Notes under the pieces: model-generated
What the model saw: only the letters and a program-made list of their open reading frames with translations
Databases searched by the model: none
What the model was told of the DNA's origin: nothing
Origin: Spizellomyces punctatus DAOM BR117
Taxonomy: Eukaryota
Direction: 5' to 3' (one strand)
NCBI GenBank assembly: GCA_000182565.2
Contig: KQ257451.1
Length of the DNA stretch: 64,000 nucleotides
Shown: piece after piece, positions 55,755 through 63,521 of the stretch
Layout of the letters: the number at the start of each line of letters is the position of its first letter
Numbering within the stretch: position 1 is the stretch's first letter
Made by a program: the position numbers and the translations under genes

Positions 55755-56318
55755 ATGGCTGCACGCAACGCTCTCTGCTTGTCCTTGTTGATTCTCTTGC
55801 TCGCCGTCGTCAATGTCCATGCACACTTTAAGCTGGACTCTCCGGCTGCCCGTGGCACCGTGGAGGACAAGGAGATAATGGCCCCGTGTGGTGGATTCGA
55901 CACTCTCCAAAACCCGAGAAACCCTCTACCGCTCACTGGCGCCAAGGTTTCTATTACCGCACTGCATCCCGATGCCACTGCAAACTTTTACTTGATCCTA
56001 TCGTCCAATCCCACTGCGAATGATTTCTCCTCAAACTCGACTACGCGGAAGCAAATAGCTCCTACAGCTACTGGTATCAAAATTGGCTCCTACTCCGCGG
56101 ACATTGATCTTTCAAAGATTCCAGAAGCAAAGGAAGGCGTTCAGGCTACTCTGCAAGTGACTTTTGATGGAGGAGATGGACTTTTGTTCCAGTGTTCGGA
56201 TGTAGTTTTGGGAGCGGCCACTGCTCAAACGCAAGGCAGTAAGAGTGCCGCTGATCGTATGAGCACGGCACGGGGATGGATTTTCGCGTTAGTTGCATTC
56301 GCTGTTCTCTTGGTGTAA
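55755..56318 (+). CDS. GPI-anchored His-brace copper protein (X325/Bim1 LPMO-like)
   Basis: Signal peptide ending VHA then His1 HFKLDSPAARG...APCGG, a second His in ALHPDA, then QATLQV...GGDGLLFQCSDV and a hydrophobic GPI tail. Confidence 0.85.
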   Translation: MAARNALCLSLLILLLAVVNVHAHFKLDSPAARGTVEDKEIMAPCGGFDTLQNPRNPLPLTGAKVSITALHPDATANFYLILSSNPTANDFSSNSTTRKQIAPTATGIKIGSYSADIDLSKIPEAKEGVQATLQVTFDGGDGLLFQCSDVVLGAATAQTQGSKSAADRMSTARGWIFALVAFAVLLV

Positions 56319-56578
56319 ATATCTGTATCAAAACCCTGTGACATTTGAAAGTTGAAATAGTTTTTGTACAATAAGAATGAAGTCTGATATGCCTCATTAC
56401 TTCTGCATACCAATCCCGTATTGAACAGCAAATACAGGTTTGAAAATGGAATTCACGTGACGGGCATCCCAACTGACGTCAGCCATCCCGCGATACAAGG
56501 TAGCAACTCCCAGATGTTGTCGGTGCAAGATGCATTGGTACAAGGGGTTAGGTGAATATCGACAAAAACAGCAGGCAG

Positions 56579-59500
56579 ATGTATCCTTCGTTAGCGGATA
56601 TCCCCATTCCCCACGGTGTCCCAGCAAAAGATGCCACATCTCCAGGTTACCTAACTGCGACAGATCTGGCGCGTTTTCATGTTCACTTCTGCCGAAAGCT
56701 CTTGTGGCTATCAAATGACAAGAGAAGACGAGCAAAAAATCGTAAAGAATTCACCGAAGTATCGTTGTGGGATCAAGCAAGGTTCAGAAAAGGCACTAGG
56801 GTACATGATAATGTGCACACGTCATAATGTTGCATGCGCCTGATTGAACCTAACTGCAGTGGGAAGATCAACTGCGAGTCGGCCTCGAGTTACTTCACGG
56901 TCCACCGCACATCATCAGCGCTGGCGAACTCATTGGTCTCATTACATTGGACACACGAAAGCACTTTTACGTTGTCGATGTGGCATTTGCCTCGCCGTCG
57001 TTCAGCAGGCAATTTGCTTCCAAACGTTCTATCAGAACTGTCTCGTTTGGCACCTTTAAACCGGACTTTCTAGAAATATGGAAGCATACGGATGAGGGTA
57101 ACTTTACGCAGATCAGATGGCGTGTCATTGATGCTAAGGCGTCGCGGAAAGTGAAGATATCCCATCAAGTGCAGATCGGGTATTACTGGCTCGCCCTCAA
57201 CGAGATATTTCAAGAATGGGTTGCAGAACATCCCAACAGGGATGTTCAACTCATTGGGGATGACACCGGCGTTGTATGGATCCCGTCGACAAACTCGCGG
57301 CATCCTACTTCTGGGCAGTTCTCGGTTTCTCTTCTACGTCCGCTTCTGGAAGATTTTCTTTTCCGTGACGTTCCGGCTATCCTGGGGCGGGAACTTAAAA
57401 ATGTACCCTGGCAGTACAATTCGCTTTGCTCAGGCTGCGAGTTTATGGACAGGTGCAGGAAGGAGGTGGTAGACGAAGAGAAACTGTCGATGATACCGCA
57501 GTTGTCAATGAAGGATCATCGATTTTTGCTGCATGTATTAGGTTATATGAGGAATATGAACTCGGGTCACTGCGCGATAGAGCCAGAGATAGAAGAATTG
57601 CACCGATTGCTTCATCCTTCTAAACCGAACGAGTTAGCACCAATAGAGCGGCTAATGGAGAGTGTGCCAGGGACGTATGGTCGTGTGCAACGTCTATTAC
57701 ATTTAAATCTTGATGCAGTCAAGCAACGGAAAATTGGCTCTTGCGAGATAGAAGAGAGCCCCGTTCTACGATCGGCCATTAGGCATACCGTTGAAATCCT
57801 CGGGAAGCGGTGCTTGGTGTTCCCAAGGAGGGAGGATGTGGCTGTGTATTTGTCGGTGGGCATCGACCCGGAAACGGACAAACTGTTTGGTTTTTCGATC
57901 CGTGCTGTATCGCAATCCCCTGGTACTTTTGAGTTCAATCGTCAAGTGGTCGCTGATGCCAGGGAACCAGACATTACGCGAATGTTTGTGGAAACGCTTG
58001 CGAATGTGATTCGACAATTGATTGCCATAAAAGAAAGCAAAGAGGACGAAAACCTTTACGTTCAATTTTTCGTTTTTGATTCAAACGATCAGGAAACCAT
58101 CACCGAGTTTCTCGTAGCCCAAGCCTGTGAAAGCAATGCCGATCCAGAATCCATTCGACTGTGCATTGGTGCGCTTTTGGATCATTCGTCAGTTTTGCTT
58201 ACGACAGTCCAACCGGAACTCCTGGCGTCTGCGCTGCTCTTCAAGCCTTCTAAAGCGCTGCGTATTGCAGAAGTGAAAAAGTATCTTCGGGTTTTTGGCG
58301 GACCGGACGTGGATTTGTCTGGCAAGAAGGAAGTATTATACGCAAGATTGGTGGAATGTCTTTCGCGTACGCACAGCAGTTTCCCGCACGGCAGCATCGG
58401 GCTGCAGAGGATGCTACCAAGACTCGTCTCTATTCATGCTGCTGTTACGGAGATGGTCGCAATCCCCGAACCGGGCTTCTACGGTCTAGATGAATGTGTT
58501 CGATGGTTGGTTGATGGGCAAAGCACTTCAAAGGAGAATGTCCATGGAGATCAATGGCTAGTTGCAATCTACAAAGCCTGGAAGGCAGGTGATGTCCAAA
58601 GAACATCGCTATTACTGCAGTCGCATGGAGAAATGCTGCATAGAGTCTCGCGTGGTCTCCGAGATCGGATCCAGGACTATTGTACGCGTAAAGAAACAAA
58701 TATGGAATGCATATTGCCCAATGTTGCAAGGGATTTTCATGTAGTGTACATCGATATGTGCAAAGACAAGCATTTGAGAAGGTTACTGTTCATGGCACAG
58801 TATGAAATGATCAGCACGTAAGTCCTATCATATGATGCCGATACACAAAGTGACGGTCTTTTAATTCATCATATAGTTTGAAGTCGCACCTTCTTTCCCG
58901 TCTCCACAACACGGAGCCTATTCTCCTTTCCTATCGGTCAAAGCAACCGGACTCTTCCTATGAATATATTTTCAACGTTCATAGCGGCCTAGCTTATCTT
59001 GATACTGACCCAGATTGGGTAGCGTACAAATGGATTCTCGTGCGGGAAGGCTCGGATGCAGACTTGATGTTTGATGATCTGGCGTATTTCGATACCAACG
59101 GTGAGCGCCTATGGATAAACGGGGAGGAACGGCGGGATATTGCCTTTGCGAATATTATGGATGTCGAAGTTGGCGAGCAAGGCGTGCAGGTTCGAATCAA
59201 ATTGCGAGCGGCTGGGTGTACATTGAAGGGAGGTACTTTTCGACTGAAGAGGCGGTAGGTTCAAGCCAATTTCTGCGTTCCTATAAATCAAGAGTTTCCT
59301 GATCCAGGAAACCTTCAGGTTAGTAGACTTCAACACTAAAAAAATTGTGAAAACGCTGATCGACATTGATCAGACTGCTCAAACAAGGTGATACCCTGTC
59401 GACGAGTATCTCATCAGCGTTTTACTCAACAAGCCCTTTCCTTAGCACTCAAAGACCCCTTTTCCTTCGCATGCTAGATGATGTTAACATAGTGGGAGCT

Positions 59501-61329
59501 GAGCGTCCATCTAACGCAGAGGACGATTTACGAGCGGAAGCGCGTTTGCAGACATTTTATCGAGAAGTGTACACGCTCTCTGGAGCTACCGAAAAGCCGT
59601 TGTTGTTCATGGGATCGCAAAACAAGGCTTTTAAAACGATCCTGGGTCGTTCGATTACACTAGTTTGGTAAGTCGACAGCTCTCTGGGTTGATCGTTTTC
59701 AGAGAGCTCATGGTTGGTCCGTGTTGACTTTCACTGTGTGTGCAGGGGACCACCAGGACATGGTAAGCTCTACCGATCAGCCAAACGCCGCGACATTCAT
59801 GACCCTTCATAATGTTCAACATAACCGTTTTCCAGGGAAGACCCACACACTCGCTCTCGCCGCTCTCCGTCTCATAGAGCTCTCTGGCCGTCGATCTCCT
59901 GGTACCCCGTTTCGAATTCTCATGACTTCCTACACAAAAGCTGCACTGGCGAATTTTACCTCTAAACTTCAGCGCCTTATCGATGAAGTCAAGTCAATTC
60001 CCAACATGGAACACGGCGACTGGCGGCAACAACTCAATGTTGGCTTGTGCGATGACAGGATGCCTTCTCCTGCTACATTGCCCCTACACTCGATCGTCGC
60101 GGGCACAGTCTGGAAGCTGTGGAAATGGATGGAAAGCAATCCAACTATTGGTGCAGCTTTTGATGTTTTGATCATTGACGAGGGTAGTCAGATGCCTGTC
60201 GCCGACGCTGCTTTGGCCATTTCCGTACTGTGTTCTGGGACAAGCAACGTATCCAAACGAGTCATCATCGCGGGAGATCATTTGCAACTTGCTCCCGTTT
60301 TGAAAGGAACTTATCCCAAAGAGACCGGGCCGGGTGATCCGCAGCTCTATGGATCTATTCTCGAGTGTTTAATGCGAGGGGATGATGGAGAGGCGGTAGT
60401 CTTGCGGGGTAGACGAGTTTCTCCAGATGTGTTTGGGCCTCTCACCACGATGTTGCGCGAAAACTTCCGAATGGTAAAGGAATTATGTACATTTACGAAC
60501 ACCATATACCGCGGAGGGCAATTTGAGCCTCAACGATCGTCCTTGGTACCTGCAAGATCGCTACCCCACACATTGCGTGGTCTTTTCCAATCCACCAATG
60601 CCCTTTTAACAGTCATTTTGAGGCCTCGATCACATACACCACTTGACATGTTGCCTTTTGAATTACATTTACAGACGGAAGCTAAAGTGGTCGGCTGGTT
60701 GGTCGAGGCGCTACTAGAGAATTTCGAAGGGAGAGTTTTCGTTATTACACCGCATCGGGCACAAAGGTCCGCTGTGAATGAGGTTTTGAGAAAGAGACAG
60801 GTGAATGGTGGTGATCGAATCAGAGTGGACACTGTGGAGAGAATGCAAGGCGACGAGGTACGGACCTCTCCACAGCAAAATGCCAGGGTATTCGGATCAT
60901 GTATTCACTGATATTCTTTTGAAATTTGACAGGCAGAGATCGTCATTGCCTGCTACGGATTTACGACGCATTTCGCACAGTATGTGTAGATCCTACTCTA
61001 TTCAACATTTGCATCCTCCTCACATTTGATATTTAACCAGATTCGAATCCGAGCTAGACTTTGTCTTCCACCGCAACCGTCTCAACGTTGCTCTATCGCG
61101 AGCCCGCAACATGTGTATCCTGATTGCATCGCAAGCCATCTTACACCCACCTGTTTCGGTCCTGGCTACTCACGAACGTTGCGAAGCTTTTGCGCATGTT
61201 AAAACATTTGTTGAGAGAAGTGCCGTTGTGCAGTGGGGCGTCGACATGGTGGGTGATGATCATGGTGCGCCGCTGAGGGACGTGACTGAGGAATTGGCGG
61301 ACAGGATGGAAAATATGGGATTGGGATAA
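56579..61329 (+). CDS. PD-(D/E)xK (Cas4/RecB-like) nuclease + SF1 (Dna2/Nam7-like) helicase, ~1,400 aa, multi-exon
   Basis: FKPDFL...VIDAKAS...HQVQIGYY and CSGCEFMDRC; spliced WGPPGHGKT, IIDEGSQ, GDHLQLAP, ENFRM, ITPHRAQ, DTVERMQGDE and NRLNVALSRAR. Confidence 0.9.
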
Positions 61330-61860
61330 ATAATGGATGATTATGCATCATCACTAAATTATATCAGCATTTGCGATTTTGAGTAACGATCCTGACCGGC
61401 CGTGCCATGTACGCAACAGTCATTCAAACATGGAGTCTTGATTACAATCTGAAGAGATGCGCTTGCCCAAATGCTATCAGCTTCAGGGTGATAGTCATTT
61501 CATATCGCAAAGCAAATTGAGAAGAAAACGATTTTATAGCCACATGATTTCAAGAAGCTAAAGCATTACGACTGGTTCCAGAGGCGACCGTCGCAATATT
61601 GCAACCAATTCATTATTATCATTTTTAAGAAGTGGGTCATTCTTGCGCAACGCACATGGGTTTACAAACCGCGTCCATCATGTATCGCTACCGCCAGAGA
61701 TCATGAGTTTGTATAATAGCCGGGCAGCGTATTTGCTGGTATTCAATCACCTCTTGCCAGTATACCCATACTGGTAGAGGTGTGGCGGGTAACGCAGGAA
61801 TTGCTTCACTCTTGTAATAGGTTATCAAGGCAAAATTCTGATCCAATCGGCTAAGCAAAT

Positions 61861-63123
61861 TCAGTTCTGTGAAAAAGGAAACAAGGAGACCTCTGCACAA
61901 ATCTCACACGGCCCATTGCCGTGCTGCTCAAAGGCATGCGTAACTTTCTCATGCATACGCAATAATCTGCCCCACAATTCTTCTTCCGCTGGCCAGTCTC
62001 CCTGTCCACAAGTCAAAAAACGTGCGGGATCGCCAAGCGCCTTCCATTGTGCAATGGTGGTATTCTTTACCATTTGAGCACCCTCCTCACCGGCTGACCC
62101 AGAGCCCCAAGGGTTATCCATCGAAAATGAATCTAGTCGCTCCCAATTCCTTACAGCGTCGATGGCATCTGCCATGAGGTATCGTAGGAACGTATATACA
62201 TTGACAACGGGACCAAGGAGGTTTTCATTGAGTACGAAGTCGAGGAAAGGGCGATACAAAAGAGATTGGTGCAGAAACACAGCATTAATAGCGTTGTAGC
62301 TCCGTAAATGATCGCTCAAGACAGTGGGTGACATTGATATAAAGCCTGGAATATCAGAGACTACCGAGTTAAAGATCGATGATCTCTCTGACGGTTTGGA
62401 TGTAGGGTACTTGATATAGTTGTATAGAGAGAATGTGCACCAAAAAGTGTGGGGACAGAATACTTGATGTTCAATGCCTTCGTCGGTTGGTTTCAGGTAG
62501 AGAATGTACTCGGCAAATAATGGGTCGGTGGATGCTTCACTGGCCCGGTACCCATGGACGAAGAAGTCGGACCGAGAAAACTTGAACGATAGTCTAACGT
62601 CACTTTTATGGTATCCATCTCTACCACCCAGGGACCTGACTGTTATTTGGTCTAATCCCTCCAACGTCCTTGCTCTGCAAACGATCTGTGGTTCCAATGG
62701 CCGGAATTTGCATATGACCCGCCCGTCTGCGTTCTCAGCCGCATCCACACAAGTCATCCTGACTAACTGGTCGCCAAAAGAGAGTTCTATGCTCCCTCTG
62801 TATGGCGTAGCCTGCTGCCATGTCCGGCAAACCGCTGATAACCGACGGGTTTCGCGGGGTGGGAGGAAGGAGAAGATTGAAGAGAGGATAATGTGGTTAT
62901 GGAAAGCGATCTGGGCAGATCGCGCCGAGGCACCTACTAGCGGCTGATTCGGAAACTGTGGGCGCTTTGGAGAAGTAAAGTACGTTAGCAAACCTAGGAT
63001 GAGAGACGCCATAGTGAAAACCCTTGTCTCGAGCATCCAGGATTCTGGTAAATTTTTGGGTAGCATCTGATGACGTAGGTACCGCGGCCGTGCTCCGCGC
63101 TTCCTCCTCCAAACGCATTGCAT
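61861..63123 (-). CDS. F-box-like domain protein (true start may be a short upstream exon near 63291)
   Basis: 420-codon ORF; IILSSIFSFLPPRETRRLSAVCRTWQQA resembles an F-box. Confidence 0.65.
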   Translation of the reverse strand: MQCVWRRKRGARPRYLRHQMLPKNLPESWMLETRVFTMASLILGLLTYFTSPKRPQFPNQPLVGASARSAQIAFHNHIILSSIFSFLPPRETRRLSAVCRTWQQATPYRGSIELSFGDQLVRMTCVDAAENADGRVICKFRPLEPQIVCRARTLEGLDQITVRSLGGRDGYHKSDVRLSFKFSRSDFFVHGYRASEASTDPLFAEYILYLKPTDEGIEHQVFCPHTFWCTFSLYNYIKYPTSKPSERSSIFNSVVSDIPGFISMSPTVLSDHLRSYNAINAVFLHQSLLYRPFLDFVLNENLLGPVVNVYTFLRYLMADAIDAVRNWERLDSFSMDNPWGSGSAGEEGAQMVKNTTIAQWKALGDPARFLTCGQGDWPAEEELWGRLLRMHEKVTHAFEQHGNGPCEICAEVSLFPFSQN

Positions 63124-63521
63124 TCCTTGTTGACTTCGATGACTTGGTTACTAATGAAGGTAAGTCAACACTTGTCAGGAGGACCGCTGCATTGGTTTAG
63201 ATAGCCGGCTCTTACAGTAGCGGTGTATGTTTCTCGTATGAGGACGACACTCGAAAGATGCTGGATTGCTTCGCGTTAGAGATCGTTCCATGTTCCTCGG
63301 CCCGCTGATATGTTCCTTAAAAAGCAAAGAGTTCTAATAATTGCTTTTAAGATGTGCTTGTAGAAGCAGTCCTAAGAGACAACGCCAACAGACGTGGTCG
63401 TGATTTTGGCAATACAGAACTGAGCCGAGTTAAACGAATCGCAAAATCGTTATATTTGCCGGGCGTCCCGGTCCAATACCTCGCACCATATAGCCTCGTC
63501 ATCCAAGTTTGGCTTGCAATA

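What the first reader, a model, noticed from the sequence alone, without database searches (positions are those of the whole stretch)
56579..61329. Non-canonical Fe-S nuclease-RNase H-like-SF1 helicase resembling prokaryotic RecB/Cas4-helicase fusions
Seen: an N-terminal TATDLARF..FC Cys plus CxxCxxxxxC flank a PD...DAK...Q..YY nuclease core, followed by a long insert with an RNase H-like strand pattern (VYLSVGIDPETDKLFGFSI, VQFFVFD) and a complete SF1 helicase. Known: the 1+3 Cys arrangement binds 4Fe-4S in Cas4, AddB and Dna2. Inference: the large insert and motif spellings differ from replicative Dna2 and look closer to TM0106-type prokaryotic nuclease-helicases. It could be an uncharacterised fungal nucleic-acid defence or repair enzyme, domesticated with about 8 introns.
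Basis: partly seen in the sequence, partly recalled or inferred. Interest (0 to 1): 0.72.

Follow-up and report, generated by a model that had tools for sequence, protein, structure and literature searches.

The report
Eukaryotic sister of bacterial Bad nuclease-helicase
This chytrid fungus gene encodes a second Dna2-like DNA-cutting motor, separate from its ordinary Dna2, from an apparently unstudied family in fungi, amoebae and an apusozoan whose closest tested relative is the rare bacterial enzyme Bad; its job in the cell is untested.

Summary
The gene is real: 9 exons, 8 introns, 1407 aa, identical to Spizellomyces punctatus SPPG_00910, and transcribed. It is not Dna2: a canonical Dna2 lies on another contig, and a tree test rejects joining the two (p = 5e-5). 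It also fails the TM0106 model. Its closest prokaryotic relatives are the Bad ('bacterial DNA2-like') proteins, one of which has been shown to be an Fe-S, 5'→3' ssDNA motor with a 5'-flap nuclease. Eukaryote-type homologues form one clade (100/100), sister to Bad (100/99). Named members are chytrids, Monoblepharomycota, Mucoromycota, Basidiomycota, two amoebozoans and Thecamonas, so this is an old acquisition, not a recent fungal transfer. The 'unknown' central domain folds as a DnaQ/DEDD exonuclease that lacks its catalytic acids; here it carries a SAP-like insert absent from prokaryotes. Best reading: a nuclear 5'-flap or overhang nuclease-motor working beside Dna2. Repair versus defence is open. 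I found no paper on eukaryotic Bad. This scan had already noted UvrD-Bad fusions, one of them in this genome.

The parts
56579..61329 (+). Whole gene, ATG to stop: 9 exons, 8 introns, 1407-aa Bad-like nuclease-helicase (SPPG_00910)
   Evidence: last two introns seen spliced and 3' RNA reads
56648..57501 (+). Iron-staple PD-(D/E)xK nuclease, residues 24-288, across intron 1. C38 (56690) plus C264/C267/C273 (57427-57456); D143, D165, K167; QxxxY at 179-183
   Evidence: Model matches Cas4 at Z 12.1, rmsd 3.5 over 198 residues. Pfam PDDEXK_1 E 0.007 and Cas4 E 0.009, both under cut-off. Conservation
57823..58713 (+). Central DnaQ/DEDD 3'-5' exonuclease-like (RNase H-like) domain, residues 396-692, predicted inactive: S406/G408 where TM0106 has D/E
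   Evidence: RNase T Z 11.7, rmsd 3.7 over 165; Pol alpha exo-like domain Z 11.4; ERI1 Z 11.4. Register against TM0106
58252..58356 (+). SAP-like helix-loop-helix insert inside the central domain, residues 539-573; absent from all 23 prokaryotic rows aligned
   Evidence: Pfam SAP E 6.5e-4, 19.7 bits, under the cut-off of 23.9. SAP or SAP_new25 at E<1 in 9 of 20 homologue fragments, none over cut-off. Insert lengths
58768..59252 (+). Stalk helix and beta-barrel (1B-like domain of Upf1/Dna2-type helicases), residues 711-852, across intron 2
   Evidence: Secondary structure of the model. The matching part of a Bad model aligns to Upf1 and IGHMBP2 from residue ~566. The 1B label is inferred
59615..61131 (+). 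SF1B (Upf1/Dna2-like) helicase core, residues 933-1342. Walker A GPPGHGKT is split by intron 6 (59747-59843); Walker B DE at 60177-60182
   Evidence: Pfam AAA_11 E 2e-14, AAA_12 E 5.5e-20; motifs

Best explanation
A vertically kept, spliced, low-expressed eukaryotic gene from a family that is sister to prokaryotic Bad. The family entered eukaryotes once, before or early in the spread of Amorphea (Amoebozoa, Apusozoa, Fungi), and was later duplicated and lost patchily. Shown here: gene, motifs, fold, tree position, and coexistence with true Dna2. Inferred from Bad and Dna2 biochemistry: the four Cys bind an Fe-S cluster that staples the nuclease; the enzyme loads on a free 5' single-stranded DNA end at a ss/ds junction; the SF1B motor moves 5'→3'; the nuclease, which sits ahead of the motor, cuts the flap or overhang. 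Inferred and untested: the dead DnaQ domain with its SAP-like insert is a second, non-cutting grip on the duplex or 3' strand, which would also explain the DNA looping seen with Bad. Most likely job (about 0.5 of the functional odds): nuclear processing of 5' flaps and broken ends as a non-essential partner or backup to Dna2.
For: Separate Dna2 on C5 (PF08696 E 1e-42; exons); no PF08696 hit in the query. Clade with Dna2 rejected, p-AU 5.5e-5. Profile search of 1.84 billion representatives with the non-helicase part: 1493 hits at E≤1e-3; of the best 150, 100 are eukaryote-type, 45 Bad and 5 Longimicrobium-type. P0201 has 1245 aa, D150 and K815, the numbers given for Bad in PMC7430649, and its cluster holds ACJ33552.1, listed as Bad in that paper's Supplementary Fig. 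1. Profile-profile match of eukaryotic family to Bad: probability 100, E 2e-171, 1163 columns. Careful mixture-model tree (32 of 54 aligned rows): eukaryote-type 100/100, Bad 100/100, together 100/99. Of 28 eukaryote-type proteins looked up, 14 carried an organism name and all 14 were eukaryotes. Catalytic residues are conserved. GC is like the rest of the window and there are only short, imperfect repeats around the gene. Bad and its eukaryotic kin recur with UvrD and RecQ helicases.
Against: No activity, localisation or phenotype was measured. Identity to Bad is only 31-34% over the helicase core, against 28% to the genome's own Dna2 fragments and 24% to TM0106, so substrate and polarity could have drifted. 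Fourteen of the 28 proteins looked up are unnamed and could be viral or prokaryotic. The inner tree conflicts with the species tree (Mucoromycota basal; Planoprotostelium beside chytrids and basidiomycetes, 98/93), so old paralogy or eukaryote-to-eukaryote transfer is needed. A helicase-only clade with TM0106 is not rejected (p 0.079). Patchy spread and the methyltransferase neighbours reported for Bad fit defence at least as well as repair. The SAP match is below cut-off, and 9 of the 30 eukaryote-type rows aligned have only a short segment there.
Confidence: 0.6

Rival explanations
1. Same enzyme chemistry, but the job is defence: it destroys or restricts invading or excised DNA (giant viruses, virus-like elements, transposon intermediates) that exposes free 5' single-stranded ends.
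For: Bad is rare in prokaryotes: 11 of 201, 1 of 301 and 1 of 201 genomes in three phyla sampled, two of these samples including the genome they were centred on. PMC7430649 reports a type III-like methyltransferase beside bad in Geobacilli and proposes a restriction role. More distant relatives lie next to a dpd cluster, a DNA methyltransferase and a TnsA-like gene. The eukaryotic family is patchy and divergent (mean column identity 24%), with two copies in Gymnopilus.
Against: The gene sits among an ABC1 kinase, a BIM1-like and an F-box gene, and a search with exon 2 finds only this copy in the genome. Archaeal bad loci share no common neighbour within 1.5 kb (ORFs listed, not scanned for families).
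Confidence: 0.25
2. The eukaryotic branch has shifted to RNA or RNA:DNA hybrids, acting like Upf1, Sen1, ZNFX1 or MOV10 in RNA surveillance or R-loop removal, with the SAP plus DEDD-like module (as in ERI1) binding RNA ends.
For: The central fold matches RNase T and ERI1/ERI2/ERI3 as well as DNA exonucleases. The motor fold is tied among IGHMBP2, Upf1 and SETX. That ERI1 carries a SAP domain is recalled, not from a call.
Against: The iron-staple PD-(D/E)xK nuclease is intact, and its tested relatives Bad, Dna2, AddB and Cas4 are DNases (PMC7430649, PMC5704561, passages). The genome already has Upf1-, Sen1-, IGHMBP2-, Aquarius- and ZNFX1-like helicases (names assigned by me from motifs).
Confidence: 0.1
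3. A divergent duplicate of eukaryotic Dna2 that picked up an insert.
For: Same domain order and the same 1+3 Cys pattern. Dna2 is the top Foldseek hit for a full-length Bad model (E 8e-26). Some databases label members 'Tripartite DNA replication factor' or 'Dna2'.
Against: No PF08696 hit. Motif III reads DAK, against ELK in the genome's Dna2. The AU test rejects the clade. The central domain is shared with Bad along its length.
Confidence: 0.04

Closest known systems
Bad, bacterial DNA2-like helicase-nuclease of Geobacillus stearothermophilus (PMC7430649; passages and supplement parts 1 and 3 of 4 read)
   Same: N-terminal iron-staple nuclease, central conserved domain, C-terminal SF1B helicase; collinear over 1163 columns; sister clade at 100/99; the central domain lacks the Exo I acids in 11 of 11 Bad rows as well.
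   Different: Eukaryotic and spliced; about 160 aa longer; SAP-like insert; a separate clade rather than nested in Bad; no methyltransferase neighbour; lives beside a true Dna2. The paper lists only bacterial and archaeal Bad proteins and calls the central domain's structure unknown.
Eukaryotic Dna2
   Same: Iron-staple nuclease ahead of a 5'→3' SF1B motor, with the same Cys pattern.
   Different: No PF08696 match; nuclease starts near residue 24, leaving no room for Dna2's N-terminal region; extra ~300-aa DnaQ-like domain; separate gene in the same genome; clade rejected.
TM0106-family RecB-like nuclease (TIGR03491; COG2251, family F.13 of PMC3985635, passages read)
   Same: Nuclease, RNase H-like 3'-5' exonuclease fold and AAA_11/AAA_12 helicase in the same order; the D-P turn after the first strand aligns.
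   Different: Score 25-28 bits against a cut-off of 97. The TM0106 Exo I motif D-I-E is replaced by S-V-G. A fungal profile scores two TM0106 proteins about 0 bits.
Longimicrobiaceae and alphaproteobacterial nuclease-helicases (P0011 group; split genes fused to a DpdJ/Lhr-like SF2 helicase)
   Same: Same three-part layout and Cys pattern.
   Different: More distant than Bad in all three trees; the alphaproteobacterial form is split in two, and one copy lies by a dpd cluster.
Cas4, AddB and RecB
   Same: PD-(D/E)xK core with QxxxY. Cas4 is the best fold match for residues 20-288.
   Different: Cas4 has no motor. RecB and AddAB put the nuclease behind a 3'→5' SF1A motor (established knowledge); here it is in front of an SF1B motor.

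Membership tests
Bad (bacterial DNA2-like) | Four Cys in a 1+3 pattern spanning a RecB-family nuclease | tested here: met
   C38, C264, C267, C273 and motifs II-IV align with 11 Bad rows
Bad (bacterial DNA2-like) | Central conserved domain absent from Dna2 | tested here: met
   Profile-profile alignment runs through the central domain, E 2e-171 overall
Bad (bacterial DNA2-like) | C-terminal SF1B helicase with intact motifs | tested here: met
Bad (bacterial DNA2-like) | Falls inside the clade of named Bad proteins | tested here: not met
   Sister to Bad, not nested: Bad 100/100 and eukaryote-type 100/100 are separate clades. Filed as a sister family
Bad (bacterial DNA2-like) | Bound Fe-S cluster, ssDNA-dependent ATPase, 5'→3' translocation, 5'-flap cleavage | not testable with these tools
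   Needs purified protein
Eukaryotic Dna2 | Pfam Dna2 domain PF08696 | tested here: not met
   No hit at E≤0.05; the family search of the genome rings only on C5
Eukaryotic Dna2 | Groups with Dna2 in a helicase tree | tested here: not met
   p-AU 5.5e-5. Only one eukaryotic Dna2, stitched from exon fragments with 250 shared columns, was available
TM0106 family (TIGR03491) | Score above the curated cut-off of 97.45 bits | tested here: not met
   27.6 bits for exon 2; 25.2 bits for the whole protein
TM0106 family (TIGR03491) | RNase H-like domain with acidic Exo I motif | tested here: not met
   Fold present, but D-I-E aligns to S-V-G
TM0106 family (TIGR03491) | Shared helicase ancestry to the exclusion of Bad | tested here: inconclusive
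   The free tree separates them, but the forced clade is not rejected, p 0.079, with only two long-branch TM0106 rows
DEDD/DnaQ 3'-5' exonucleases (active) | D-x-E in Exo I | tested here: not met
   Position 406 is Asp in 1 of 19 and position 408 is Glu in 0 of 19 named eukaryotic rows
SAP domain (PF02037) | Score above 23.9 bits | tested here: inconclusive
   19.7 bits, E 6.5e-4; weak recurrence in 9 of 20 homologue fragments; no usable Atlas hit

The most novel reading that the evidence does not exclude
Early eukaryotes, or at least the ancestor of Amorphea, had a second Dna2-like end-processing enzyme taken from the prokaryotic Bad lineage. Yeasts, animals and plants lost it, which is why it was missed. 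Its dead exonuclease plus SAP module is the junction-gripping site that makes Bad a looping motor, and in chytrids, basidiomycetes and amoebae it serves as a DNA-based defence against viruses or mobile DNA, a eukaryotic heir of a restriction-like system.
Probability: 0.2. Interest if true: 0.85.

Novelty: new variant of a known kind. Interest (0 to 1): 0.6.

Why it matters
Dna2 is treated as the eukaryotic iron-staple nuclease-helicase, and Bad was described as a rare prokaryotic enzyme of unknown role with a central domain of unknown fold. This gene shows a eukaryotic sister family living beside Dna2 in fungi, amoebae and an apusozoan, and it assigns that central domain to a dead DnaQ exonuclease fold. 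Two open questions become testable: what the domain does in the DNA looping seen with Bad (delete or mutate it), and what Bad-type enzymes do in a cell (knock it out in a chytrid or basidiomycete). If the role is defence, it would be a DNA-targeting immune enzyme in eukaryotes; if repair, a lost backup route for flap and end processing.

Tried and rejected
Sequence searches of the PDB found nothing useful. Foldseek alone gave no match at E≤0.001 for the fungal model; its best rows were Cas4. PADLOC gave only weak Cas4 and helicase-core matches (MkoA, MkoC, DpdJ, PDC-S37), and NCBIfam hits PLuB, ProA and IGHMBP2 were far below cut-off, so no named defence system is claimed. Exon 2 found nothing in plasmids. 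P0201 found no record with 80% cover among phages, and one among plasmids. No RNA holder was listed among indexed runs. The fold search of the full-length Bad model was filled by helicases, so Bad's own central domain was not tested by fold, only by alignment to the fungal one. Longimicrobium looked like the donor after the first search but was displaced by Bad. A recent insertion was rejected on GC, introns and lack of flanking repeats. Nine paper searches listed no paper on a eukaryotic Bad or TM0106-like gene; the library lacks most subscription journals, and I saw only listings for most hits. No complex prediction was run, as no binding partner is claimed.
Full report
The observation. Splicing the window at eight GT-AG introns gives a 1407-aa protein from 56579 to 61329 on the + strand. 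It is identical to database protein SPPG_00910 of Spizellomyces punctatus. One contig of run X6 shows the last two introns spliced, and RNA run X7 shows sense reads at the 3' end, about twenty times fewer than for the neighbouring gene. Introns 1-6 rest on reading frame, the database model and alignment to homologues. The neighbours are an ABC1 kinase, a BIM1-like and an F-box gene. GC is 0.47-0.48, like the rest of the window, and only short imperfect repeats lie nearby.

Anatomy. An AlphaFold model of residues 1-888 (10 sequences, pLDDT 76.6) has two recognisable domains. Residues 20-288 match Cas4 (Z 12.1, rmsd 3.5 over 198). Residues 396-692 match DnaQ/DEDD 3'-5' exonucleases: RNase T Z 11.7, the Pol alpha exonuclease-like domain Z 11.4, ERI1 Z 11.4. 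These Z values are middling, and Foldseek alone gave no match at E≤0.001. The Exo I acids are gone: TM0106's D-I-E-G-D-P aligns to S-V-G-I-D-P. Position 406 is Asp in 1 of 19 named eukaryotic rows and 0 of 11 Bad rows, and position 408 is Glu in none of either set. I therefore read the domain as inactive. Inside it lies a SAP-like insert (E 6.5e-4, below cut-off; weak SAP hits in 9 of 20 homologue fragments). The segment that holds it is 53-101 aa in 21 of 30 eukaryote-type rows and 21-36 aa in the other 9. In the 23 prokaryotic rows it is 6-16 aa, apart from one of 35 aa. A stalk helix, a beta-barrel and an intact SF1B core follow. Nuclease and helicase catalytic residues are conserved across the family.

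Not Dna2. The Dna2 family model rings only on contig C5 (E 1e-42), where the exons of a canonical Dna2 can be read. The query has no such hit. In a helicase-core tree of 54 rows, the query's family sits inside a prokaryotic clade (SH-aLRT 99) away from Dna2. Forcing it together with Dna2 is rejected (p 5.5e-5; 51 rows, three long or gappy rows left out). Only one eukaryotic Dna2, stitched from fragments, was in that test.

Closest relatives. Word-indexed searches gave chytrids, Agaricomycetes and a Longimicrobium group. A profile of the non-helicase part (nine fungi plus one Longimicrobium-type row) against 1.84 billion representatives gave 1493 hits at E≤1e-3, 906 at 1e-10 and 347 at 1e-30. 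Only the best 150 were shown: 100 eukaryote-type, 45 Bad and 5 Longimicrobium-type by best profile (the profiles include some of these rows). One of the 45, P0201, has 1245 aa with D150 and K815, the numbers given for Geobacillus Bad in PMC7430649. Its cluster contains ACJ33552.1, which that paper's supplement lists as Bad. A fungi-only profile scores Anoxybacillus Bad 197 bits, Methanoculleus Bad 167, Longimicrobium 72 and two TM0106 proteins 1.9 and -2.0. The eukaryotic and Bad profiles align over 1163 columns (E 2e-171).

Spread and origin. The fifteen fungal proteins named are chytrids and Agaricomycetes. I looked up 28 of the other eukaryote-type hits; 14 had an organism name: four chytrids, Hyaloraphidium, Mixia, Mortierella, Zychaea, Jimgerdemannia, Acaulospora, Funneliformis, Planoprotostelium, Vannella and Thecamonas. 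The other 14 are unnamed. None of the named ones was an ascomycete, animal or plant, but this sample cannot show absence. A whole-length tree of 54 rows and a careful mixture-model tree of 32 of those rows (22 dropped for run time, among them near-duplicates and long branches) agree: eukaryote-type rows form one clade (100/100), Bad another (100/100), and the two are sisters (100/99) among other prokaryotic families. The root rests on chosen prokaryotic outgroups, so a prokaryotic origin is inferred from that nesting and no donor lineage can be named. Inside eukaryotes the tree conflicts with the species tree (Mucoromycota basal; Planoprotostelium beside chytrids and basidiomycetes), which calls for old paralogy or later transfers. 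A helicase-only clade with TM0106 could not be rejected (p 0.079). Bad itself is rare: 11 of 201, 1 of 301 and 1 of 201 genomes in three phyla sampled.

How it probably works. PMC7430649 (passages) shows that Bad holds an Fe-S cluster, is an ssDNA-dependent ATPase and 5'→3' translocase, prefers 5' overhangs, cuts DNA ahead of its motor and extrudes an ssDNA loop. It calls the central domain's structure and the cellular role unknown. Since the residues mutated there are kept here (D165 for D150, K957 for K815), I infer the same chemistry: load on a free 5' end, move 5'→3', cut the flap. I infer further that the dead DnaQ domain, with the eukaryotic SAP-like insert, is a non-cutting grip on the junction. 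None of this is measured. For the cellular job I put about 0.5 on flap and end processing beside Dna2, 0.3 on defence against foreign DNA and 0.1 on RNA substrates, with the rest on others such as mitochondrial upkeep. Links to UvrD and RecQ recur: a UvrD-nuclease, Bad, NERD-UvrD, RecQ run in one bacterium, two prokaryote-type Bad-UvrD fusions, and a UvrD-Bad fusion on contig C17 of this genome. These fit end processing but not only repair. Methyltransferase, dpd and TnsA neighbours of Bad or its more distant relatives favour defence.

What is known. PMC3985635 (passages) already describes the nuclease plus RNase H-like plus AAA layout for COG2251, so the three-part architecture is not new. 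PMC5704561 (passages) covers Cas4-helicase fusions and does not mention fungi. PMC13451438, a review of fungal DNA repair (passages), mentions Dna2 only in its canonical role in the passages shown. Nine searches listed no paper on eukaryotic Bad. This scan's own notes hold several bacterial TM0106 fusions and two eukaryotic UvrD-fused forms, one a marine protist tied to Bad and one that appears to be the C17 gene here. I reached Bad through the paper search before seeing those two notes; they are unchecked and add no independent support.

Verdict. A real, conserved, expressed gene. It is neither Dna2 nor TM0106 but a member of an apparently undescribed eukaryotic sister family of Bad, with a dead exonuclease-fold domain and a SAP-like insert. 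New variant of a known kind; interest 0.6.

Noticed in passing
G000:C17 about 155,400-161,300 (-), locus L105: Second Bad-like gene in the same genome. One 599-codon frame carries UvrD C-terminal motifs and an iron-staple nuclease, followed by a central domain and an SF1B helicase whose Walker B reads E-E. It is a long branch in the eukaryotic clade. Two motors of opposite expected polarity in one chain; apparently already noted by this scan (e1-7220581).
   Followed up: partly
P0239 (2017 aa), P0257 (2054 aa), P0197 (1669 aa): Bad-clade fusions: UvrD before Bad, UvrD after Bad, and an extra RNase T-family exonuclease before Bad.
   Followed up: partly
L024:3257-14270: Syntrophorhabdaceae run of four same-strand genes: UvrD-PDDEXK nuclease, Bad, NERD-UvrD, RecQ.
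   Followed up: partly
L019:5004-13597; L020:5992-14645; L021:5995-14837; L023:5971-14680: Alphaproteobacterial plasmids carry a split relative: a nuclease plus central-domain gene, then a ~2100-aa SF1B + SF2 (DpdJ/Lhr-like) double helicase. One copy lies beside a dpd cluster, one beside imuA and dinB.
   Followed up: partly
window 55755-56318 (+): Intronless BIM1-like copper-acquisition gene (PF20238 E 4e-22), strongly expressed, with poly(A) reads at about 56396-56399, 180 nt upstream of the finding's ATG.
   Followed up: no
window 61861-63147 (-): F-box gene converging on the finding; its 3' reads (61423-62024, minus strand) abut the finding's 3' reads.
   Followed up: no
window 56723-56749 (+), residues 49-57: Basic stretch KRRRAKNRK in a loop of the nuclease; a possible nuclear localisation signal, basic but variable in other chytrids. 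No predictor was run.
   Followed up: no
P0150-P0246: Many short Agaricomycete-type hits cover only the nuclease or only the central domain; 44 of the 100 eukaryote-type hits reach 1150 aa. They may be exon fragments from gene callers or real split genes.
   Followed up: no
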